Part shown: positions 30,933 to 63,814 of the stretch, piece by piece
Layout of the letters: each line of letters opens with the position of its first letter
Position numbering within the stretch: the stretch's first letter is position 1
Assembly (NCBI RefSeq): GCF_044324875.1
Contig: NZ_CP172185.1
Direction: 5' to 3' (one strand)
DNA length: 64,000 bases
Source of the DNA: Escherichia coli
GTDB lineage: Bacteria; Pseudomonadota; Gammaproteobacteria; Enterobacterales; Enterobacteriaceae
Made by a program: the position numbers and the translations under genes
The notes under the pieces: generated by a model
Database searches by the model: none
What the model saw: only the letters and a program-made list of their open reading frames with translations
What the model was told of the DNA's origin: nothing

Positions 30933-31322
30933 TTATAAATCTGCGCCCGCTGACAAATTCAGTTGAATATCTTTGTCGAGATTGCGGACCCAGCGATTGT
31001 AGTTTTTATGAATTTGTCCGCCTGACGCTTGTAGGTTCTGGCTATTTTCATAATTGATATCGTAGCTGGATGCCGTGTAGTTAATGCGAATTTCGGCTGA
31101 ATGATCGCGTGACTGTTGACGTGCTTTAATTACGCCTTGTCCGGCTTCGGACATAATCCATTTGCGTTCAACGCCAGCTTTCAGAATCGCTTTTTTCACT
31201 TGTTCCTGGGTATGACCAGCGCTGACGGTTGAGTGAACCTGATCAATTGGCGCAGTACGCGCGCAACCCGCTAAAGCACCCACAACAGCAATAGCCGCAA
31301 ACCATTTCATGTAATGTCTCAT
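30933..31322 (-). CDS. Small lipoprotein, first gene of the cluster (ApeA-position)
   Basis: 129-aa ORF with signal peptide and lipobox LAGC; AT-rich promoter-like region upstream. Confidence 0.6.
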   Translation of the reverse strand: MRHYMKWFAAIAVVGALAGCARTAPIDQVHSTVSAGHTQEQVKKAILKAGVERKWIMSEAGQGVIKARQQSRDHSAEIRINYTASSYDINYENSQNLQASGGQIHKNYNRWVRNLDKDIQLNLSAGADL

Positions 31323-31651
31323 TAGAACCCCATTAAAGTATTGTTTTTACGAGTAAAGCAAGATTTAACTGTAATTGCTGGCATCACTATTCTTTATTTA
31401 GCGAAAAAATTACTTGTGAGATAAGTCAGTAAGTGCACATCAGAGTAAAAATTTCTGAAATGACTAAATTACTGCCAGCGGGGACCAACTATAAGTGAGT
31501 GAGAAAAATGAGGCAATAAAAATAACACAATGTTATCAGTGCATTCTTTGAGAAGGATTTAATCGCTATTCGGCGTTTATATATATTTGACTTAAGGAAT
31601 GGTTTTTATAAATTAATTGTCTGAATAATGTTTCTTCATTTCCTCAAATCA

Positions 31652-31682
31652 AATGGCCACTGTTAGATAAACGGTGGCCATT
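31652..31682 (-). terminator. Hairpin (AATGGCCAC ... GTGGCCATT) 20 bp downstream of the yhhT stop; candidate intrinsic terminator
   Basis: 9-bp perfect inverted repeat with 13-nt loop read from the sequence, followed on the transcribed strand by a T-rich tract. Confidence 0.4.
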
Positions 31683-32068
31683 GCCTGCTCAGGAGGTGCT
31701 ATTAACCCGGTAATCGACTTTTCGGTCTGCCCGGTCCCAGTAAAATCGCCAGTTTGCTACCGCCTTTGGTGGTTTCCATCCAGATTTTACACACGCTGGT
31801 TAATGGTACCGAAAGTAGCATCCCTACCGGGCCGAGCAGCCATCCCCAAATTAACAATGAAAGAAATACCACCATGGTGGACATCCCCAGGCGATGGCCC
31901 ATCATCCGTGGTTCTAAAATATTGCCGATGACCATATGGACCACTAAAAACAATGCGCCGACCAGAATACATTCGTAAACGCCATTAAACAGCAGCACCT
32001 GAATCATTGGCGGGGTGATGCTGCCAACTTACTGATTTAGTGTATGATGGTGTTTTTGAGGTGCTCCA

Positions 32069-32344
32069 GTGGCTTCTGTTTCTATCAGCTGTCCCTCCTG
32101 TTCAGCTACTGACGGGGTGGTGCGTAACGGCAAAAGCACCGCCGGACATCAGCGCTATCTCTGCTCTCACTGCCGTAAAACATGGCAACTGCAGTTCACT
32201 TACACCGCTTCTCAACCCGGTACGCACCAGAAAATCATTGATATGGCCATGAATGGCGTTGGATGCCGGGCAACTGCCCGCATTATGGGCGTTGGCCTCA
32301 ACACGATTTTACGTCACTTAAAAAACTCAGGCCGCAGTCGGTAA
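32069..32344 (+). CDS. insA: IS1 InsA protein
   Basis: 91-aa ORF starting [32 protein letters not shown] (zinc-finger/HTH region of InsA). Confidence 0.95.
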
Positions 32345-32766
32345 CCTCGCGCATACAGCCGGGCAGTGACGTCATCGTCTGCGCGGAAATGGACGAACAG
32401 TGGGGCTATGTCGGGGCTAAATCGCGCCAGCGCTGGCTGTTTTACGCGTATGACAGGCTCCGGAAGACGGTTGTTGCGCACGTATTCGGTGAACGCACTA
32501 TGGCGACGCTGGGGCGTCTTATGAGCCTGCTGTCACCCTTTGACGTGGTGATATGGATGACGGATGGCTGGCCACTGTATGAATCCCGCCTGAAGGGAAA
32601 GCTGCACGTAATCAGCAAGCGATATACGCAGCGAATTGAGCGGCATAACCTGAATCTGAGGCAGCACCTGGCACGGCTGGGACGGAAGTCGCTGTCGTTC
32701 TCAAAATCGGTGGAGCTGCATGACAAAGTCATCGGGCATTATCTGAACATAAAACACTATCAATAA
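32263..32766 (+). CDS. insB: IS1 InsB reading frame (expressed as the InsAB' transposase by -1 frameshifting)
   Basis: 167-aa frame overlapping insA in the -1 frame, ending IKHYQ; standard IS1 organisation. Confidence 0.9.
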
Positions 32767-47030: not shown

Positions 47031-47414
47031 TTAACGCTTCTCCCAGCCGCCCTGTTGTGCCGTAAATCCCAGAGCCTGCATAAACGCTGTCATCACACCG
47101 CGATCTTCCACGCCAGCATCCGCCATCCACCAGCCTAAAACGCCAGGATTGGTACGCAAAACCTCTTCCAGCAGATATTGCCCCACACCGCGACGGCGGG
47201 TGACTTCCCGCACACGTAGAGAATCCAGTGCCCCCTCGGTGCCGCTTAAGGTTACCCGCACGGCCGCTAGGAGGCGCTCGTTAAAACGCGCGGCGTAGAT
47301 ACGGTGGTTATCGTCAACCTGTAAAGAGGAAGGGGAATACTCCGGCCAGATCTTTTGCAGGTCAATCCGGTCCTGGTCGCTAAAGTTTTCTAATCGAATG
47401 ATGGTCAGCTTCAT
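47031..47414 (-). CDS. panM: GNAT-fold PanD maturation factor PanM
   Basis: 127-aa GNAT-family protein at the conserved position between livJ and livK. Confidence 0.85.
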   Translation of the reverse strand: MKLTIIRLENFSDQDRIDLQKIWPEYSPSSLQVDDNHRIYAARFNERLLAAVRVTLSGTEGALDSLRVREVTRRRGVGQYLLEEVLRTNPGVLGWWMADAGVEDRGVMTAFMQALGFTAQQGGWEKR

Positions 47415-47837
47415 GGGTAACCCGTGTAAATCACAAAAGAGGAACCAGTGTAGCGAAATAATTTAATCGGAGGCTTTCTCTTTTTTATTTCTTTTGGCAG
47501 GTGATTAATTTTTTTTCAGCAATAATTACAAAGTTAAAACATTAGAGAATGAAAAATGTCCAGCATAATCCCCTGAATGGTAGTGAATTATTCTGCCCTT
47601 TGTTCCGTTATTTTATGCTGACAACGGTGCTTTTTTCTGTTTATCTATCAATTAATTCAGAATATTATCTGTTCTTAATCGACTGAAAAATAGGGATTTT
47701 AATCGCTATTATCACAAAATACTGCGCTAAACCCTTAATCAGACAGGTAAAAACAGCGCAGTATAAAAAAAGAACAGCCTGATTTGTTAACACATAAAAA
47801 CAAAGCAACACAACATTACGAGTGGGGATTTTTGACT

Positions 47838-48947
47838 ATGAAACGGAATGCGAAAACTATCATCGCAGGGATGATTGCACTGGCAATTTCACACACCGCT
47901 TTAGCCGACGATATTAAAGTTGCCGTTGTCGGCGCGATGTCCGGTCCGATTGCTCAGTGGGGCGATATGGAATTTAACGGCGCGCGTCAGGCCATTAAAG
48001 ACATTAATGCCAAAGGGGGAATTAAGGGCGATAAGCTGGTGGGCGTGGAATATGACGACGCCTGCGATCCGAAACAAGCCGTTGCGGTCGCCAACAAAAT
48101 CGTTAACGACGGCATTAAATACGTCATCGGCCATCTGTGTTCCTCCTCTACCCAGCCTGCTTCAGATATCTACGAAGACGAAGGTATTCTGATGATCTCG
48201 CCGGGAGCGACCAACCCGGAGCTGACCCAACGCGGTTATCAACACATCATGCGCACTGCCGGGCTGGACTCTTCCCAGGGGCCAACGGCGGCAAAATACA
48301 TTCTTGAGACGGTGAAGCCCCAGCGCATCGCGATCATTCACGACAAACAACAGTATGGTGAAGGGCTGGCGCGTTCGGTGCAGGACGGATTGAAAGCAGC
48401 CAATGCCAACGTCGTTTTCTTCGACGGTATTACCGCCGGGGAGAAAGATTTCTCCGCGCTGATCGCCCGCCTGAAAAAAGAAAACATCGACTTCGTTTAC
48501 TACGGCGGTTACTACCCGGAAATGGGGCAGATGCTGCGCCAGGCCCGTTCCGTTGGCCTGAAAACTCAGTTTATGGGGCCGGAAGGTGTGGGTAATGCGT
48601 CGTTGTCGAATATTGCTGGCGATGCTGCCGAAGGCATGTTGGTCACTATGCCAAAACGCTATGACCAGGATCCGGCAAACCAGGGCATTGTTGATGCGTT
48701 GAAAGCAGACAAGAAAGATCCGTCCGGGCCTTATGTCTGGATCACTTACGCGGCGGTGCAATCTCTGGCGACTGCCCTTGAGCGTACCGGCAGCGATGAG
48801 CCGCTGGCACTGGTGAAAGATTTAAAAGCTAACGGTGCGAACACCGTGATTGGGCCGCTGAACTGGGATGAAAAAGGCGATCTTAAGGGATTTGATTTTG
48901 GTGTCTTCCAGTGGCACGCCGACGGTTCATCCACGGCAGCCAAGTGA
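47838..48947 (+). CDS. livK: Leucine-specific periplasmic binding protein LivK
   Basis: 369-aa product starting [11 protein letters not shown], highly similar to LivJ; first gene of livKHMGF. Confidence 0.9.
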
Positions 48948-58573: not shown

Positions 58574-60316
58574 ATGATAAAACCGACGTTTTTACGCCGG
58601 GTGGCCATTGCTGCTCTGCTCTCAGGAAGTTGTTTTAGCGCCGCCGCCGCGCCTCCTCCGCCACCTGTTTCTTATGGCGTGGAGGACGATGTCTTTCATC
58701 CGGTACGCGCGAAACAGGGGATGGTGGCGTCTGTAGATGCTACTGCCACTCAGGTGGGGGTGGATATCCTCAAGGAGGGTGGGAATGCCGTTGATGCCGC
58801 CGTGGCGGTGGGCTACGCGCTGGCGGTAACGCATCCGCAGGCAGGGAATCTGGGCGGTGGTGGTTTTATGCTGATCCGCTCGAAAAATGGCAATACCACC
58901 GCTATCGATTTCCGCGAAATGGCACCCGCCAAAGCGACCCGCGATATGTTCCTCGATGACCAGGGCAACCCGGACAGCAAAAAATCACTCACTTCGCATC
59001 TGGCCTCCGGTACGCCAGGTACGGTCGCAGGTTTCTCGCTGGCGCTGGAGAAGTACGGCACCATGCCGTTAAATAAAGTGGTGCAGCCGGCGTTTAAACT
59101 GGCACGCGATGGTTTTATCGTTAATGACGCGCTGGCTGACGATCTCAAAACCTACGGTAGCGAAGTGTTGCCGAATCACGAAAACAGCAAGGCTATCTTC
59201 TGGAAAGAGGGCGCGCCGCTGAAAAAGGGCGACAAGCTGGTGCAGGCGAACCTGGCAAAGAGCCTGGAGATGATTGCCGAAAACGGCCCGGACGAATTCT
59301 ACAAAGGCACGATAGCGGAACAGATTGCCCAGGAGATGCAGAAAAACGGTGGCTTGATCACTAAAGAAGATTTAGCGGCGTATAAAGCGGTCGAACGTAC
59401 ACCGATTAGCGGCGATTATCGCGGGTATCAGGTTTACTCCATGCCACCGCCATCTTCCGGCGGGATCCATATCGTACAAATCCTCAATATTCTGGAAAAC
59501 TTCGATATGAAGAAATACGGCTTTGGCAGCGCCGACGCGATGCAAATCATGGCAGAAGCTGAGAAATATGCCTACGCCGACCGCTCGGAATATCTTGGCG
59601 ACCCGGATTTTGTCAAAGTTCCGTGGCAGGCGCTGACCAATAAAGCCTATGCCAAATCTATTGCCGATCAAATCGATATCAATAAAGCGAAGCCATCCAG
59701 CGAAATTCGCCCCGGCAAGCTTGCGCCTTATGAGAGTAATCAAACTACCCATTACTCAGTGGTGGATAAAGACGGCAACGCGGTAGCGGTGACCTATACG
59801 CTGAACACCACCTTCGGGACGGGCATTGTCGCGGGCGAGAGCGGTATTCTGCTTAATAACCAGATGGATGATTTCTCCGCCAAACCTGGCGTACCGAACG
59901 TTTACGGGCTGGTGGGTGGTGACGCCAACGCGGTCGGGCCGAATAAACGCCCGCTGTCGTCGATGTCCCCAACCATTGTGGTGAAAGACGGTAAAACCTG
60001 GTTAGTGACTGGTAGCCCAGGCGGTAGCCGGATCATCACTACCGTGCTGCAAATGGTGGTGAACAGCATCGATTATGGTATGAATGTCGCCGAAGCGACC
60101 AATGCACCGCGTTTCCACCATCAGTGGTTGCCGGACGAACTGCGCGTCGAGAAAGGATTTAGCCCGGATACGCTCAAGCTGCTGGAAGAAAAAGGTCAGA
60201 AAGTAGCGCTGAAAGAGGCGATGGGCAGCACACAAAGCATTATGGTTGGGCCGGACGGCGAGTTGTACGGCGCATCCGATCCGCGCTCGGTGGATGATTT
60301 AACGGCGGGGTATTAA
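58574..60316 (+). CDS. ggt: Gamma-glutamyltranspeptidase
   Basis: 580 aa with signal peptide and the conserved Thr-containing autoprocessing region (NQTTHYSVVD). Confidence 0.95.
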   Translation: MIKPTFLRRVAIAALLSGSCFSAAAAPPPPPVSYGVEDDVFHPVRAKQGMVASVDATATQVGVDILKEGGNAVDAAVAVGYALAVTHPQAGNLGGGGFMLIRSKNGNTTAIDFREMAPAKATRDMFLDDQGNPDSKKSLTSHLASGTPGTVAGFSLALEKYGTMPLNKVVQPAFKLARDGFIVNDALADDLKTYGSEVLPNHENSKAIFWKEGAPLKKGDKLVQANLAKSLEMIAENGPDEFYKGTIAEQIAQEMQKNGGLITKEDLAAYKAVERTPISGDYRGYQVYSMPPPSSGGIHIVQILNILENFDMKKYGFGSADAMQIMAEAEKYAYADRSEYLGDPDFVKVPWQALTNKAYAKSIADQIDINKAKPSSEIRPGKLAPYESNQTTHYSVVDKDGNAVAVTYTLNTTFGTGIVAGESGILLNNQMDDFSAKPGVPNVYGLVGGDANAVGPNKRPLSSMSPTIVVKDGKTWLVTGSPGGSRIITTVLQMVVNSIDYGMNVAEATNAPRFHHQWLPDELRVEKGFSPDTLKLLEEKGQKVALKEAMGSTQSIMVGPDGELYGASDPRSVDDLTAGY

Positions 60317-60323
60317 GGTTAGC

Positions 60324-60347
60324 GGCCCTCTTCGTGGGAAGAGGGCC
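60324..60347. terminator. Perfect hairpin GGCCCTCTTC-GTGG-GAAGAGGGCC between convergent ggt and yrhB
   Basis: 10-bp perfect inverted repeat 8 bp after the ggt stop and 7 bp before the yrhB stop. Confidence 0.5.
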
Positions 60348-60353
60348 GTATTG

Positions 60354-60638
60354 TCAGGGCAAGCCGAAGGTAGCCTTTTTTATTTCATAATCCTGTAGAT
60401 ATTCTTCCAGCGGCTTTGCCGTTCCAAGGGAATGAATTTCACCACTGTCTTTATCAATAATAAAAGGTGCGTTACCGGCTAAGCGCGCGGCCTCATCACC
60501 AGATTCAAGAAATTCTTGTGATTCGAAACAGAAATACCAGCCCTGGCTAAAACGTCCATGCAGAGTGATGACGACAGGGAGATCTGCATCATCAAGGTAA
60601 TGGTTCGCTTTCGCGAATGCGTCGTGATAAGTAATCAT
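60354..60638 (-). CDS. yrhB: Small protein YrhB
   Basis: 94-aa ORF starting MITYHDAFAKANHYLDD, recognised as the K-12 YrhB sequence. Confidence 0.8.
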   Translation of the reverse strand: MITYHDAFAKANHYLDDADLPVVITLHGRFSQGWYFCFESQEFLESGDEAARLAGNAPFIIDKDSGEIHSLGTAKPLEEYLQDYEIKKATFGLP

Positions 60639-61087
60639 AATTATAATAAATATTATTGTTGAACGTTATATTATTATTCTTGCGTTATACTTTGAGAAAA
60701 GGCGTGTTCATCTTCGTCAAAGATATTATTAAATGCTGGTTTTGAAAAAAGTTCATCGGATAATATACAGTCACGAAATAAGTATCTGCTAATATTTTGT
60801 GATTTCTTTTTCAGAACGTCGAACGGGATTTTCTTATTTAAGATATCAGAATCTTATGATTCGGGTGAAATTCTAACTAAATCAACATGTCACTAAAATC
60901 ATCATAGCCATTAGCTATTTCGGCTAAAATAGAGATTACATGTCTTCGGTCCATCTCACTTAAGGAGTGTAGTTCCGTTGTAAGTTTTTCCATAGCTTGC
61001 ATTGCTAAGTTTCGAACAAGGAATTTTCTGCTGGTAATCTCTAAAAAGATGGCATGGTTTACAATGATTTTTGTTATCTTTTGATTA

Positions 61088-61582
61088 TTATGAACAACTG
61101 TCCATGATTTCGTTTAAGAATGAAGAGAAATCACTAAACGAACTGAATATATTTTCGGTGCCAATATTATCTCTAATTTCAAAAAAGTTATTTTTAATGT
61201 CATAAGTAAATATTGAAATGCTATCATCCCCGATCACTAACCGTTCTTGTAGATCAGGGTTTATGAAATCATCATTATTTCTATAAAATTCATTTACGGT
61301 AAAAAGGTTTTTAACTGAAGGTTCTGGAATCGAGAGGCTAAATAATCGTAATCCATTAACTTCGAATCCATCCATTGCTCTTAAAAAAGTAAGATAATCA
61401 GGTTGATTCTTAAAAAGAATACTAACTTCATTACATAACTTCTCCAGGCAATTAGTTGAATTAGAATTAAATTCTATTTGGATTATACTTTCAATAAATG
61501 ATTCCTTGAGCGGTGCTTCAAATGGATAGTCTAAATCATTCATCATTTTTTTTAATTTATTTATTTGGGTTTTAGTCATCAT
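61088..61582 (-). CDS. Candidate immunity protein for the upstream Hcp-toxin (YrhA-like, apparently intact here)
   Basis: 164-aa ORF in a very AT-rich segment; its start overlaps the toxin stop by 4 bp (ATGA), the usual effector-immunity arrangement. Confidence 0.6.
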   Translation of the reverse strand: MMTKTQINKLKKMMNDLDYPFEAPLKESFIESIIQIEFNSNSTNCLEKLCNEVSILFKNQPDYLTFLRAMDGFEVNGLRLFSLSIPEPSVKNLFTVNEFYRNNDDFINPDLQERLVIGDDSISIFTYDIKNNFFEIRDNIGTENIFSSFSDFSSFLNEIMDSCS

Positions 61583-62757
61583 TTTGTGGGTTCCATAATA
61601 TTTTTCATGGGAGGATAAATTGAGCCAGATGGAATGGCCCAGGGAGTGATTTTGCTTTCACCTACTAATATTCCCTTAGCTATTCGTGATTGCATGTTAG
61701 TAAAAACTTTATGATATGGTTCGTTTTCGATTAATACTAAATTTTCGAAATCATTAGTACCACCATCATCTAGAGATAGTTTATGGTGAACATTATAATT
61801 TAGAGGAACATTGCCCTTTCTCATTCTTAAAAGGTCTTCGGCGTTGAATCTTCCAGATGCTTCGGAGGTTTTTGCAAGTTTGATAAGAAAATTTTTTCTT
61901 ACAGTTTTATTAAACTCCTTTCGTAAGTTAGCTAAGTCTTTTGAAGGTCTCTTAATGTATATTATTTCTATTATGTCTATACCATCAAGAAGTTTTTGTT
62001 GACCTCTAAGTTTGCCTAAATAACTATTTATTTCTGTATATGTATCAACATTAGAACGCTTTGTTAAAAGAATAGATGCTGTTGCTATCGCTATGCCCGC
62101 TGTTTTTTCATTTAGTATTTGATCATAGCCTTTTATTGCATCTCCACCCAGTTTTTCCGCAGTATCTCTGAATCCTTCAATGTTCCCATTGTATACGCCA
62201 CCAGCAGCAAGTAGCCTGCCAATAGCTTTGCTGTTTAACGTTTTGAAACGATTATTTGTTTGGTTTTTTGAATTTGGTAAAAACAAACGGTTATAATTTT
62301 CAGGGAGTGCCAAATAGCTGAACTCGGTATTTGCGATAAGATGTTGACAGAGGATAAATTCATAACTAACAGTTATTGTTTCTGTATCCAGTTGATTTTC
62401 AATGATCTGATGATGAATAGCCGATAAAAAAGCGCCTCTTAGTTGTATATAATAATACTTTTCCCATCTACCAAATCTATTGATTCTATAAAAGTCAAAT
62501 TCCATAAATAATTGCTCATTATTGTTAATGGAATTAATAAGTAATGGAGTGCTTTTATCAATTAATTTACAAAATGTCATACCCTGTAACTGTGAACCAA
62601 GTCCCGTATTAGTAATTCTATTTGCGAGTGAGAATGTAAATATTTCATCCTCATGCCCACTCTGCCAGCGATTACCTATAGATTCAGTAGTCCCACAACC
62701 TGCGGAGATGTTTCCTTGTTGTTCTCCCGTTACTGTCAGGTAAACAATATTACTCAT
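61579..62757 (-). CDS. yhhZ: Hcp-domain protein with a C-terminal HNH-like nuclease extension (Hcp-ET-type T6SS effector; YhhZ-like)
   Basis: N-terminal 160 aa resembles Hcp (VYLTVTGEQQGNISAGC ...); C-terminus carries an HNH-like motif (NYNVHHKLSLDDGGTNDFENLVLIENEPYH). Confidence 0.7.
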   Translation of the reverse strand: MSNIVYLTVTGEQQGNISAGCGTTESIGNRWQSGHEDEIFTFSLANRITNTGLGSQLQGMTFCKLIDKSTPLLINSINNNEQLFMEFDFYRINRFGRWEKYYYIQLRGAFLSAIHHQIIENQLDTETITVSYEFILCQHLIANTEFSYLALPENYNRLFLPNSKNQTNNRFKTLNSKAIGRLLAAGGVYNGNIEGFRDTAEKLGGDAIKGYDQILNEKTAGIAIATASILLTKRSNVDTYTEINSYLGKLRGQQKLLDGIDIIEIIYIKRPSKDLANLRKEFNKTVRKNFLIKLAKTSEASGRFNAEDLLRMRKGNVPLNYNVHHKLSLDDGGTNDFENLVLIENEPYHKVFTNMQSRIAKGILVGESKITPWAIPSGSIYPPMKNIMEPTK

Positions 62758-62992
62758 CCCTGAAAAGTCCTTTTATGGCATGCTATTTTATTAATGGCAC
62801 TATTATGCTTGTTAATTGTTATTTATTTACTCTAGGAAATTGTAGGCGTATATATTAATAATAAAATATTACACTTTAGGACGTAATTATGAGGTAAATC
62901 TCAATATATTTATTGGGCAAATAAATACATTAAAGGAAGATATGCCGATTTTGAATGACGCCCTTTTTCCATCTCAGAAAAAGGGCACTATC

Positions 62993-63481
62993 TTACTTCA
63001 CCCGTGCCATATAATACGCATCGACATATTCACCATTACGTAATGCGTACTTTTTGCCAGTCCCTTCAATCTCAAAGCCGAATTTTTTATAGACCTTAAT
63101 TGCTGGCGCGTTATCGACGAACACCGTTAGCTCAATACGATCTACCCGCAACCAGTTGTCGCACATTTCAATCATCTCTCGCATCAGGGCGCTGGCGACG
63201 CCGTGATTCTTCCAGCGGGCGTCGACACAGATACCAAAATCGGCAACATGACTGCGGCGCGGGCGTTGTTGCACGTCAATGGTGAGATGTCCTACGACGA
63301 TTCCATCAATACAGGCGACTAACTGCTTGATGCCGGGACGATCGGCGAGTCGCTCCTGCCACATATGATCGGAAGGATGAGGCACCTGTAGTGTGTTGCA
63401 ATACACCTCCGGCTGGGCGTGAATCTGCCTGATGGCCTCGTAATCGCGCGTTTCAGCATGGCGTATCACTATCTCACTCAT
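62993..63481 (-). CDS. yhhY: GNAT-family N-acetyltransferase
   Basis: 162-aa product starting MSEIVIRHAE with the acetyl-CoA binding motif (HGVASALMREMIEM). Confidence 0.85.
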   Translation of the reverse strand: MSEIVIRHAETRDYEAIRQIHAQPEVYCNTLQVPHPSDHMWQERLADRPGIKQLVACIDGIVVGHLTIDVQQRPRRSHVADFGICVDARWKNHGVASALMREMIEMCDNWLRVDRIELTVFVDNAPAIKVYKKFGFEIEGTGKKYALRNGEYVDAYYMARVK

Positions 63482-63814
63482 TCCTTTGTCCTCTTTGGGG
63501 TAAATGTCCCTTTCAACATCATTGACTTTCAAATGCGAGTCAAATGCATTTTTTTGCAAAAAGTGTTGGACAAGTGCGAATGAGAATGATTATTATTGTC
63601 TCGCGATCAGGAAGACCCTCGCGGAGAACCTGAAAGCACGACATTGCTCACATTGCTTCCAGTATTACTTAGCCAGCCGGGTGCTGGCTTTTTTTTTGAT
63701 CTTTCGTTTTCAATTTATCCACGGGAAGTGCTTGTGTTCGTTATGCGCACTCCAGTAGGAACCACGTCCGCTTTGCGCTAAGGTATAAATAACCACCTTA
63801 AAAAGGACGAAATC

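What the first reader, a model, noticed from the sequence alone, without database searches (positions are those of the whole stretch)
60639..62992. Compositional island boundaries around the Hcp-toxin module
The spacers at 60639-61087 and 62758-62992 and the two genes between them are strongly AT-rich relative to the backbone, with no ORF of 60 aa or more in the 450-bp spacer. A GCCCTTTTT/AAAAAGGGC hairpin at 62960-62986 abuts the yhhY stop. The spacer may hold decayed immunity-gene remnants or regulatory RNA.
Basis: seen in the sequence. Interest (0 to 1): 0.3.

Follow-up and report, generated by a model that had tools for sequence, protein, structure and literature searches.

The report
Dead immunity gene beside Hcp toxin
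This AT-rich block is the well-known E. coli yhhZ-yrhA-yrhD-yrhB toxin/immunity locus between ggt and yhhY, and its "empty" 450-bp spacer holds the broken remains of an extra immunity gene that is still intact in Citrobacter, so it is an ordinary gene graveyard.

Summary
Window 60639-62992 has 31.8% GC against a 54% backbone. The 449-bp spacer has no ORF of 60 aa or more, and a 9-bp-stem hairpin sits 6 nt past the yhhY stop.

The region is the known E. coli locus ggt / yrhB (Imm35) / yrhD / yrhA (immunity) / yhhZ (Hcp-HNH, "Hcp-ET1") / yhhY. The spacer itself is found in 3804 of 5426 complete E. coli genomes; the whole block covers 3757 of them.

New detail: window 60677-60835 (- strand) is a start-less, 3'-truncated remnant (residues 2-54 of 86) of an "ORF86" gene. 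In Citrobacter and Budvicia, ORF86 lies 1-2 nt after a different polymorphic toxin domain, which is the immunity position.

The rest of the spacer is the K-12 "yrhD" ORF. Here it is cut by TAT>TAG, it shows no purifying selection, and it has no relatives outside E. coli. No regulatory RNA is supported.

The step at 60638/60639 is a junction between cassettes, not the island edge. The variable region really begins at about 60349, so yrhB is inside it, and ends at the yhhY stop codon. The hairpin lacks a U-tract and occurs only in the allele that carries the island.

This is ordinary decay in a polymorphic-toxin locus and of low interest.

The parts
60323..60348 (.). G+C-rich hairpin shared by the convergent genes ggt and yrhB; true left edge of the variable region
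   Evidence: Perfect 11-bp inverted repeat. Folds at -25.4 (+ strand) and -22.2 (- strand) kcal/mol, z = -4.6 and -6.6. Homology with the O157 allele and with Citrobacter resumes at 60346-60348.
60354..60638 (-). yrhB, an intact Imm35-family orphan immunity gene; it belongs to the variable region despite its intermediate GC (0.449)
   Evidence: Pfam Imm35, E = 1.2e-22, 80 bits against a cut-off of 27.5. Annotated YrhB. Absent from the empty-site and O157 alleles. The Citrobacter homologue has the same GC, 0.463.
60639..60676 (-). AT-rich yrhB leader; replaces the last third of ORF86 and the Shine-Dalgarno sequence seen in Citrobacter
   Evidence: In the DNA alignment, E. coli diverges from Citrobacter after ORF86 codon 54-55. 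Citrobacter has AGGAGG before yrhB and E. coli has none.
60670..60698 (-). Promoter-like site TTCTCA-17-AATAAT upstream of yrhB
   Evidence: Consensus scan only. A sigma-S RNA polymerase SELEX peak is listed between yrhD and yrhB in K-12 (PMC5493296). My mapping of that peak is approximate.
60677..60835 (-). Pseudogene remnant of ORF86, the immunity gene of an uncharacterised toxin domain ('toxX'): residues 2-54 of 86, start codon lost (ATG>AAT), 3' third missing
   Evidence: tblastn 41-49% identity, E 1e-11 to 1e-15 and 1e-9 to 1e-11. Smith-Waterman score 107 against a shuffle mean of 23, z = 19.3. Gapless protein alignment. DNA alignment. BLASTP against the Budvicia homologue E = 4e-9.
60838..60993 (-). 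Equivalent of the K-12 yrhD ORF (51 codons), here cut by TAT>TAG at codon 39 (stop at 60877-60879); origin unknown, probably not a functional gene
   Evidence: Annotated as a pseudogene in the identical strain 7/2. All 12 changed codons among 3 lineages are nonsynonymous or nonsense. Only E. coli hits among 1.84e9 representative proteins.
60994..61087 (-). Gap between yrhA and yrhD; open in the yrhD frame, no assignable origin
   Evidence: Most divergent sub-segment of the spacer against UPEC 536 (89.4% identity).
61088..61582 (-). yrhA, the intact immunity-position gene of the Hcp-HNH toxin; it overlaps the yhhZ stop by 4 nt. K-12 carries IS1 after the equivalent of 61192.
   Evidence: 66% identical to the C. 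youngae gene in the same position.
61146..61175 (-). Sigma-70 promoter-like site TAGAGA-18-TATATT inside the 3' end of yrhA, pointing into the spacer
   Evidence: Scan. The same hexamers are listed as the constitutive RpoD promoter of yrhD, with an H-NS flag, in genomic SELEX (PMC3946193).
61579..62757 (-). yhhZ (annotated tssD), an Hcp fused to an HNH-type toxin domain ('Hcp-ET1' type); the switch between conserved and polymorphic parts is near 62138
   Evidence: Pfam T6SS_HCP E = 1.3e-12. HNH E = 0.005, below the cut-off. His-Me finger group 32 (PMC5714182). DNA homology to all Citrobacter loci runs 62757-62138 only; with the HNH-type locus L015 it continues to 61099.
62758..62992 (-). AT-rich region upstream of yhhZ (GC 0.298); specific to the island, with no Citrobacter counterpart
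62960..62986 (-). Hairpin 6 nt downstream of the yhhY stop, without a U-tract
   Evidence: Not called as a terminator. Conserved in K-12 and 536 with a GGGC>GGGT change that keeps pairing only on the - strand RNA. Absent from the empty, yrhB-only and O157 alleles.
62993..63481 (-). yhhY, a backbone GNAT acetyltransferase; its stop codon is the right edge of the variable region
   Evidence: Pfam Acetyltransf_1 E = 8e-18. Alleles diverge at or immediately after the stop codon. Citrobacter homology ends at 62993.

Best explanation
The AT-rich block is a chromosomal polymorphic type VI secretion effector locus in the variable ggt-yhhY slot of E. coli. Reading the - strand, it holds yhhZ (Hcp fused to an HNH nuclease), yrhA (its immunity gene) and a tail of leftover immunity cassettes.

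The 449-bp spacer is that tail's graveyard. Its yrhB-proximal part is a dead copy of ORF86, the immunity gene of a different toxin domain (toxX) that occupies this locus in Citrobacter. Its yrhA-proximal part is the E. coli-only 'yrhD' pseudo-ORF of unknown origin. yrhB (Imm35) is the last cassette and is still intact.

Most likely history (inferred): an Hcp-toxX / ORF86 / yrhB arrangement like that of Citrobacter freundii had its toxin end replaced by the HNH/yrhA cassette. The recombination used the conserved hcp 5' part, with the breakpoint near 62138. ORF86 was left without a partner toxin and then decayed.

The GC steps are junctions between cassettes that each keep their own composition, not insertion scars. 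What the spacer still does (inferred) is carry transcription and promoters into yrhB, and bind H-NS as AT-rich DNA. The hairpin at 62960-62986 most likely marks or stabilises the 3' end of the yhhY transcript and partly insulates yhhZ.
For: Shown:
- Locus identity and gene names.
- Hcp domain, and Imm35 for YrhB.
- Several alleles occupy the same slot: full island in 3757 genomes, yrhB only, a DUF4225 cassette, and an empty site.
- The same slot in Citrobacter carries Hcp-ET loci with different toxin ends. The shared hcp 5' segment is 620 nt.
- ORF86 starts 1-2 nt after the toxX stop in C. freundii-group genomes. It also follows an Rhs-toxX gene in Budvicia at 57% identity, E = 8e-37.
- The E. 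coli spacer matches ORF86 residues 2-54 with z = 19. The start codon is lost and the 3' end is missing in all three lineages examined.
- yrhD is broken independently in the window (TAG at codon 39) and in UPEC 536 (ATG>ATA plus a stop at codon 23). There are 0 synonymous changes among 12 changed codons.
- The spacer diverges 4.5-8.2%, against 1.0-2.4% for yrhA.
- Each cassette has the same GC in both genera: yrhA 0.285 and 0.291, ORF86 about 0.31 and 0.32-0.33, yrhB 0.449 and 0.463.

From the literature:
- Hcp-ET1 is an HNH DNase delivered by T6SS2 and neutralised by ETI1 (Ma et al. 2017, as summarised in PMC6730261).
- RpoD and RpoS SELEX sites and H-NS binding at yrhD/yrhB (PMC3946193 and PMC5493296).
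- 'Promoter islands' in yhhZ and yrhA (PMC3661553).
Against: - The order of events is inferred from three arrangements, not reconstructed on a tree.
- The immunity function of ORF86 rests on gene position only. It has no Pfam family, and its structure model failed (pLDDT 44).
- The 250-nt yrhD part has no identified ancestor, so about half of the spacer is explained only as 'not under selection'.
- The spacer is exactly 449 nt in three lineages despite up to 8% substitutions, which could hint at some constraint.
- No transcription data were available for this strain.
- The HNH Pfam hit for YhhZ is below the gathering score.
Confidence: 0.8

Rival explanations
1. yrhD is a real small-protein gene, as annotated in K-12 (51 aa), and the spacer exists to encode it. 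The window strain simply carries a recent null allele.
For: NCBI annotates 'protein YrhD' in most genomes, and the K-12-like allele is intact and common: 3020 of 3804 genomes fall in the 95-99% identity band. A SELEX RpoD promoter is assigned to it. The frame is open for 82 codons in K-12, P about 0.04-0.07 against shuffles.
Against: There is a nonsense codon in the window lineage, and start loss plus a stop in UPEC 536. All 12 changed codons are nonsynonymous or nonsense. No homologue outside E. coli exists among 1.84e9 representative proteins, and there is no Pfam hit. The open-frame length is not significant in the window or in 536, P = 0.14-0.42.
Confidence: 0.05
2. The spacer encodes a regulatory RNA, either a small RNA or a structured leader that controls yrhB or the toxin/immunity genes.
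For: It lies upstream of yrhB and is probably transcribed: promoter-like sites and SELEX peaks are present, and no terminator is predicted between yrhA and yrhB. Its length is conserved without indels in three lineages.
Against: No Rfam family matches at E <= 1, except a spurious snoRNA hit inside yrhA. Fold z-scores are -0.95 (sense) and -1.9 (antisense), both unremarkable. The substitution rate is higher than in the flanking genes. Part of the spacer is demonstrably a dead protein gene.
Confidence: 0.07
3. The block 60639-62992 is a single, recently inserted foreign island, and the two AT-rich spacers are its insertion boundaries.
For: There are sharp GC steps at both ends. E. coli shows a presence/absence polymorphism, including an empty site. 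The right edge coincides exactly with the yhhY stop.
Against: yrhB, outside the AT-rich block, is also absent from the empty-site and O157 alleles, so the left edge is at about 60349. There are no flanking direct repeats, integrase or tRNA. Several Citrobacter species carry homologous cassettes in the same slot, so the slot has been occupied for a long time with cassette turnover. GC is a property of each cassette and is conserved across genera.
Confidence: 0.08

Closest known systems
[quoted passage not shown] 2017; in K-12, yhhZ / yrhA
   Same: Same genes and same chromosomal position. There is an Hcp domain at the N-terminus, an HNH-type C-terminal domain, and an immunity-position gene that overlaps the toxin stop by 4 nt. 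The literature equates the orphan Hcp-HNH with Hcp-ET1.
   Different: Nothing essential. In this window yrhA is intact, whereas K-12 has IS1 in it, and yrhD carries a stop. I did not align the window protein directly to the published Hcp-ET1 sequence.
Orphan toxin/immunity cassette arrays downstream of polymorphic toxins (Rhs and CDI 'orphan' modules; poly-immunity loci described by Zhang et al. 2012)
   Same: A live toxin/immunity pair is followed by further immunity genes from other toxin types (ORF86, Imm35 YrhB). There is a conserved 5' toxin scaffold with swappable 3' ends, and the cassettes are AT-rich.
   Different: No remnant of the displaced toxin's 3' end could be found in front of the ORF86 remnant: the toxX profile gives no hit. 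One of the orphan immunity genes is dead rather than kept.
K-12 small ORF yrhD (b4612-type 'protein YrhD' annotation)
   Same: It occupies window 60838-60993 at 97.4% DNA identity.
   Different: It is truncated here by TAG at codon 39, and my comparison argues it is not a conserved gene at all.
Rho-independent terminators
   Same: The hairpin at 62960-62986 sits directly after a stop codon and has a stable stem.
   Different: There is no U-tract on either strand, so it fails the terminator scan. By contrast, Citrobacter has a canonical terminator after yhhY, GGGCGA..TCGCCC followed by TTTTT.

Membership tests
Hcp-ET polymorphic T6SS effector locus | N-terminal Hcp (T6SS_HCP) domain | tested here: met
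   PF05638, E = 1.3e-12, 48.6 bits against a cut-off of 23.5, residues 18-139.
Hcp-ET polymorphic T6SS effector locus | C-terminal toxin domain (HNH / His-Me finger for ET1) | tested here: inconclusive
   Pfam HNH E = 0.005, 17.3 bits, below the cut-off of 21.4. YhhZ is classified as His-Me finger group 32 in PMC5714182.
Hcp-ET polymorphic T6SS effector locus | Conserved N-terminal scaffold with alternative C-terminal domains among relatives | tested here: met
   Most relatives in the scan (seven Citrobacter/Salmonella loci) match residues 1-220 to 1-234 only. DNA homology stops at 62138 except in the HNH-type locus L015.
Hcp-ET polymorphic T6SS effector locus | Immunity gene immediately downstream of the toxin | tested here: met
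   yrhA overlaps the yhhZ stop by 4 nt. The same pair occurs in C. youngae.
Hcp-ET polymorphic T6SS effector locus | T6SS-dependent delivery and toxicity | not testable with these tools
   Literature only (PMC6730261).
Decayed orphan immunity gene (ORF86 remnant) | Significant homology to a gene that sits in the immunity position of a polymorphic toxin | tested here: met
   z = 19.3. tblastn E 1e-11 to 1e-15 and 1e-9 to 1e-11. ORF86 lies 1-2 nt after toxX on an Hcp scaffold (Citrobacter) and on an Rhs scaffold (Budvicia).
Decayed orphan immunity gene (ORF86 remnant) | Loss of coding integrity | tested here: met
   Start codon ATG>AAT, only residues 2-54 of 86 retained, an extra stop in K-12. 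No intact copy in 5426 complete E. coli genomes by blastn.
Decayed orphan immunity gene (ORF86 remnant) | The intact homologue actually neutralises its toxin | not testable with these tools
   No family annotation. The AlphaFold model was unusable, pLDDT 43.7.
Imm35 immunity family (YrhB) | Pfam PF15567 match above the gathering score | tested here: met
   80.2 bits against 27.5. The Citrobacter homologue scores 68.6 bits.
Intrinsic (Rho-independent) terminator (hairpin 62960-62986) | G+C-rich stem followed by a U-tract | tested here: not met
   The stem is present, but there is no T-run on either strand and the scan does not call it.
Known regulatory RNA families (Rfam 15) | Covariance-model match in either spacer | tested here: not met
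   In 60200-63700 the only real match is RyhB at 63632-63696, outside the finding.
Functional small protein YrhD | Intact ORF under purifying selection with homologues | tested here: not met
   Stop at codon 39 here. 0 synonymous changes among 12 changed codons. E. coli-only hits.
Classical integrative genomic island | Flanking direct repeats, integrase or tRNA target | tested here: not met
   No meaningful flanking repeats and no integrase ORF. Only the presence/absence polymorphism is met.

The most novel reading that the evidence does not exclude
The spacer may not be mere debris. It is exactly 449 nt, with no indels, across E. coli lineages that differ by up to 8%, and it is probably transcribed from sigma-70 and sigma-S sites. 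It could therefore have been re-used as a long leader, or a cis-acting H-NS / sigma-S switch, that controls the orphan immunity/chaperone gene yrhB. A dead immunity gene would then have become regulatory DNA.
Probability: 0.07. Interest if true: 0.35.

Novelty: new member of a known kind. Interest (0 to 1): 0.15.

Why it matters
Mostly housekeeping.

- It argues that the K-12 'gene' yrhD is probably not a gene.
- It identifies the neighbouring sequence as a dead orphan immunity gene.
- It shows that the sharp GC step at 60639 is a junction between cassettes, not an insertion boundary.
- It points to an uncharacterised toxin/immunity pair (toxX / ORF86) that moves between Hcp and Rhs scaffolds in Citrobacter and Budvicia. 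This pair could be tested experimentally.
- It documents ggt-yhhY as a long-lived, hypervariable slot for T6SS cargo in Escherichia and Citrobacter.

None of this changes how polymorphic toxin loci are understood.

Tried and rejected
1. The fused conceptual translation of the spacer found only E. coli fragments. This held for the 5.8e9-protein word-indexed search and the exhaustive HMMER search of 1.84e9 representatives. The ORF86 family was not among the hits listed at E <= 0.001 and was found only through synteny.

2. Pfam on the fused translation gave nothing at E <= 1.

3. By eye, yrhD looked like the 3' end of the displaced toxX domain (RRLIIRGNA/RKFLVRNLA, SLGDR/SEMDR). This is rejected. 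BLASTP gave no alignment at E <= 100, Smith-Waterman z was 0.4, and a profile HMM built from the toxX query plus its 56 homologues scored about 0 bits on all six frames of three lineages.

4. yrhD as a decayed duplicate of the yrhB (Imm35) N-terminus is unresolved. z = 3.3, P about 0.01 against the Citrobacter YrhB only, and z = 1.0 against E. coli YrhB. This is not significant after correcting for 8 tests.

5. The AlphaFold2 model of ORF86 from a 17-row alignment had pLDDT 43.7 and pTM 0.31. It was too poor for a fold search, so none was run.

6. A blastn 'distant' search of C. youngae ORF85 against all complete E. coli genomes gave no match. No intact copy was detected in E. coli, and the remnant itself is below DNA-level detection.

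7. A search for flanking direct or inverted repeats as insertion scars found only short AT-rich chance matches.

8. ORF294, the gene between yhhY and hcp in Citrobacter, has no remnant in spacer 62758-62992.
Full report
**Observation.** The composition claim holds. The backbone (1-60300) is 54.0% GC. Spacer 60639-61087 is 30.7%, yrhA 28.5%, yhhZ 34.0% and spacer 62758-62992 29.8%. yhhY returns to 51.3% and ggt is 54.6% (profile). The lowest-GC 2354-nt window of the whole 64 kb starts at 60627. The spacer has no ORF of 60 aa or more; the longest is 41 aa at 60877-61002 on the - strand. The hairpin GCCCTTTTT(9 nt)AAAAAGGGC is at 62960-62986, 6 nt from the yhhY stop. As - strand RNA it folds at -16 to -17 kcal/mol, z = -2.9. 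Perfect 9-bp hairpins are not rare: there are 5 distinct ones in the window against about 2.5 hits in shuffles.

**What the locus is.** The window ends in the E. coli region ugpC-ugpQ-yhhA-ggt / yrhB / yrhD / yrhA / yhhZ (annotated tssD) / yhhY / yhhX. Strain 7/2 is 100% identical over the spacer, and there yrhD is annotated as a pseudogene. K-12 has the same order, with IS1 inside yrhA after the equivalent of window 61192. YhhZ has an Hcp domain (E = 1.3e-12) and a sub-threshold HNH hit. YrhB is a clear Imm35 immunity-family protein (E = 1.2e-22). YhhY is a GNAT acetyltransferase. The literature classes YhhZ as an Hcp-fused His-Me finger nuclease (PMC5714182). The orphan Hcp-HNH with its downstream gene is the Hcp-ET1/ETI1 effector-immunity pair delivered by T6SS2 (Ma et al. 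2017, as summarised in PMC6730261 and bioRxiv 2024.03.05.583533). The region has already been flagged as a genomic island (PMC3309015). It has also been described as H-NS-bound 'promoter islands' (PMC3661553).

**True boundaries.** The spacer occurs in 3804 of 5426 complete E. coli genomes and the whole block in 3757. Other genomes have different contents in the ggt-yhhY slot:
- a 60-bp empty junction (L004),
- yrhB alone (L005),
- a DUF4225 cassette in O157:H7 (L006),
- IS1-damaged versions (L007 and K-12).

All alleles share sequence up to the ggt terminator hairpin (60323-60348) and diverge just after it. On the other side they diverge at the yhhY stop codon, which itself varies among TAA, TGA and TAG. 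The variable region is therefore about 60349-62992. yrhB is inside it although its GC is 44.9%.

**Comparison with Citrobacter.** A scan of one genome per species with YhhZ found Hcp-ET loci in the same yhhY-ggt slot in several Citrobacter species.
- C. youngae (L015): yhhY-ORF294-Hcp~HNH-YrhA-ORF85-ORF87-ggt.
- Citrobacter sp. FP75 (L009) and the C. freundii-group genomes sampled (L020-L025; the ORF86 cluster P0014 is recorded on 238 contigs): yhhY-ORF294-Hcp~toxX-ORF86-YrhB(Imm35)-small ORF-ggt. ORF86 starts 1-2 nt after the toxin stop.

DNA homology to E. coli covers four stretches:
- yhhY up to 62993;
- the first 620 nt of hcp (62757-62138) in every locus;
- onward through yrhA (to 61099) only in the HNH-type locus;
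- yrhB (60639-60383), and then the backbone again from 60348.

This is the signature of a polymorphic toxin: a constant 5' scaffold with swappable 3' toxin and immunity cassettes. Each cassette keeps its own GC in both genera: yrhA 0.285 and 0.291, ORF86 about 0.31 and 0.32-0.33, yrhB 0.449 and 0.463. That explains the sharp step at 60638/60639.

**Anatomy of the spacer.**

*(a) Window 60677-60835 (- strand)* translates to KKIPFDVLKKKSQNISRYLFRDCILSDELFSKPAFNNIFDEDEHAFSQSITQE. This aligns without gaps to residues 2-54 of ORF86. The evidence is 41-49% identity with tblastn E of 1e-11 to 1e-15 or 1e-9 to 1e-11. The Smith-Waterman score is 107 against a shuffle mean of 23, z = 19.3, and the alignment is. 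The start codon is AAT instead of ATG. The last third of the gene, and the AGGAGG ribosome-binding site that precedes yrhB in Citrobacter, are missing in all three E. coli lineages examined. K-12 has a further stop.

The toxX domain also occurs at the end of an Rhs protein in Budvicia aquatica. It is followed 2 nt later by an 87-aa protein that is 57% identical to ORF86, E = 8e-37. That protein also matches the E. coli remnant, E = 4e-9. ORF86 therefore travels with toxX across scaffolds, which is the usual genomic criterion for a cognate immunity gene.

*(b) Window 60838-60993* is the K-12 yrhD ORF (51 codons). Here TAT>TAG cuts it at codon 39. UPEC 536 has lost the ATG and has a stop at codon 23. 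All 12 codons that differ among the three lineages are nonsynonymous or nonsense. The open frame is not longer than chance in AT-rich DNA, except marginally in K-12. No relative exists outside E. coli. Its origin is unresolved.

*(c) Divergence.* The spacer diverges 4.5-8.2% between lineages, against 1.0-2.4% for yrhA and 2.4-3.2% for yhhZ. This points to relaxed constraint.

**RNA and promoters.** No Rfam family matches either spacer; RyhB at 63632-63696 lies outside the finding. The spacer folds no better than shuffles, z = -0.95 sense and -1.9 antisense. It is probably transcribed. The motif TAGAGA-18-TATATT at 61175-61146 is the constitutive RpoD promoter assigned to yrhD by genomic SELEX, with an H-NS flag (PMC3946193). 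A sigma-S SELEX peak lies between yrhD and yrhB (PMC5493296), near the promoter-like TTCTCA-17-AATAAT at 60698-60670. No terminator is predicted between yrhA and yrhB. The remaining role of the spacer is thus most plausibly that of leader and promoter DNA for yrhB. That is an inference.

**Hairpin and right spacer.** The hairpin is conserved in K-12 and UPEC 536 with one change (GGGC>GGGT). That change keeps a G-U pair only on the - strand, which is the yhhY-sense RNA. The hairpin is absent from the empty, yrhB-only and O157 alleles. It has no U-tract and is not called as a terminator. In Citrobacter, yhhY is followed by a canonical terminator (GGGCGA..TCGCCC TTTTT) that shares the 9-mer GCCCTTTTT with the E. 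coli hairpin. The E. coli hairpin may be a rebuilt remnant of that terminator. This is speculative. Spacer 62758-62992 has no counterpart in Citrobacter, where ORF294 sits instead.

**Mechanism and verdict.**

Shown:
- This is a polymorphic Hcp-ET effector/immunity locus in a hypervariable chromosomal slot.
- It carries a dead ORF86 immunity gene and an unselected yrhD ORF between the live yrhA and yrhB genes.

Inferred:
- A toxX/ORF86/yrhB arrangement was overwritten by the HNH/yrhA cassette through recombination in the conserved hcp 5' part.
- The orphaned ORF86 then decayed.
- The AT-rich remnant now serves as H-NS-bound leader DNA.

This is the known behaviour of polymorphic toxin loci, found here in a locus whose genes already have names. 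The only additions are the identity of the ORF86 remnant, the doubt cast on yrhD, and the uncharacterised toxX/ORF86 pair. Interest is low.

Noticed in passing
window 63632-63696 (+): RyhB small RNA (Rfam RF00057, 83 bits, E = 2e-15) with its terminator at 63671-63689, just beyond yhhY.
   Followed up: no
window 31270-32350: A low-GC patch (31.27-31.73 kb) lies next to a 101-aa ORF (31702-32007, -) whose N-terminal part appears to be missing. An IS1 insA-like ORF starts at 32069 (+). This looks like an IS1 insertion that K-12 may not share.
   Followed up: partly
window 47360-47900: A second low-GC patch. It is the intergenic region upstream of a 387-aa ORF (47784-48947, +) that looks by eye like the periplasmic binding protein LivJ; no family search was run.
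   Followed up: no
L006 (E. coli O157:H7 Z570) 740-2570: In O157:H7 the same ggt-yhhY slot holds a different AT-rich cassette: a DUF4225-domain protein plus an unannotated + strand ORF of about 120 aa. This suggests the slot collects different cargo.
   Followed up: partly
L020 2746-4258; L026 2501-3788: An uncharacterised toxin domain ('toxX', no Pfam) is fused to Hcp in Citrobacter and to Rhs in Budvicia. In both it is followed within 1-2 nt by an ORF86-family protein. By eye toxX contains HVHPDGTLRSSLGD, which fits the JAMM-like pattern HxHx7SxxD; no profile supports this.
   Followed up: partly
L005 1040-1148 (yrhB-only allele): The 109-bp spacer between yrhB and yhhY in this allele shares a 15-nt string (TAAGTCGTGCTTTTT) with the DUF4225 gene of the O157 allele. 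It may be another cassette remnant or chance.
   Followed up: no
window 60639-61087 versus L002 and L003: The spacer is exactly 449 nt in three lineages that differ by 4.5-8.2%. There are substitutions only and no indels.
   Followed up: no
L008, L017: Two 'non-enterobacterial' records in the species-representative genome set carry 96%-identical E. coli yhhZ DNA on short contigs: a Flavihumibacter MAG and Alkalicoccobacillus porphyridii. This is most likely assembly contamination.
   Followed up: no
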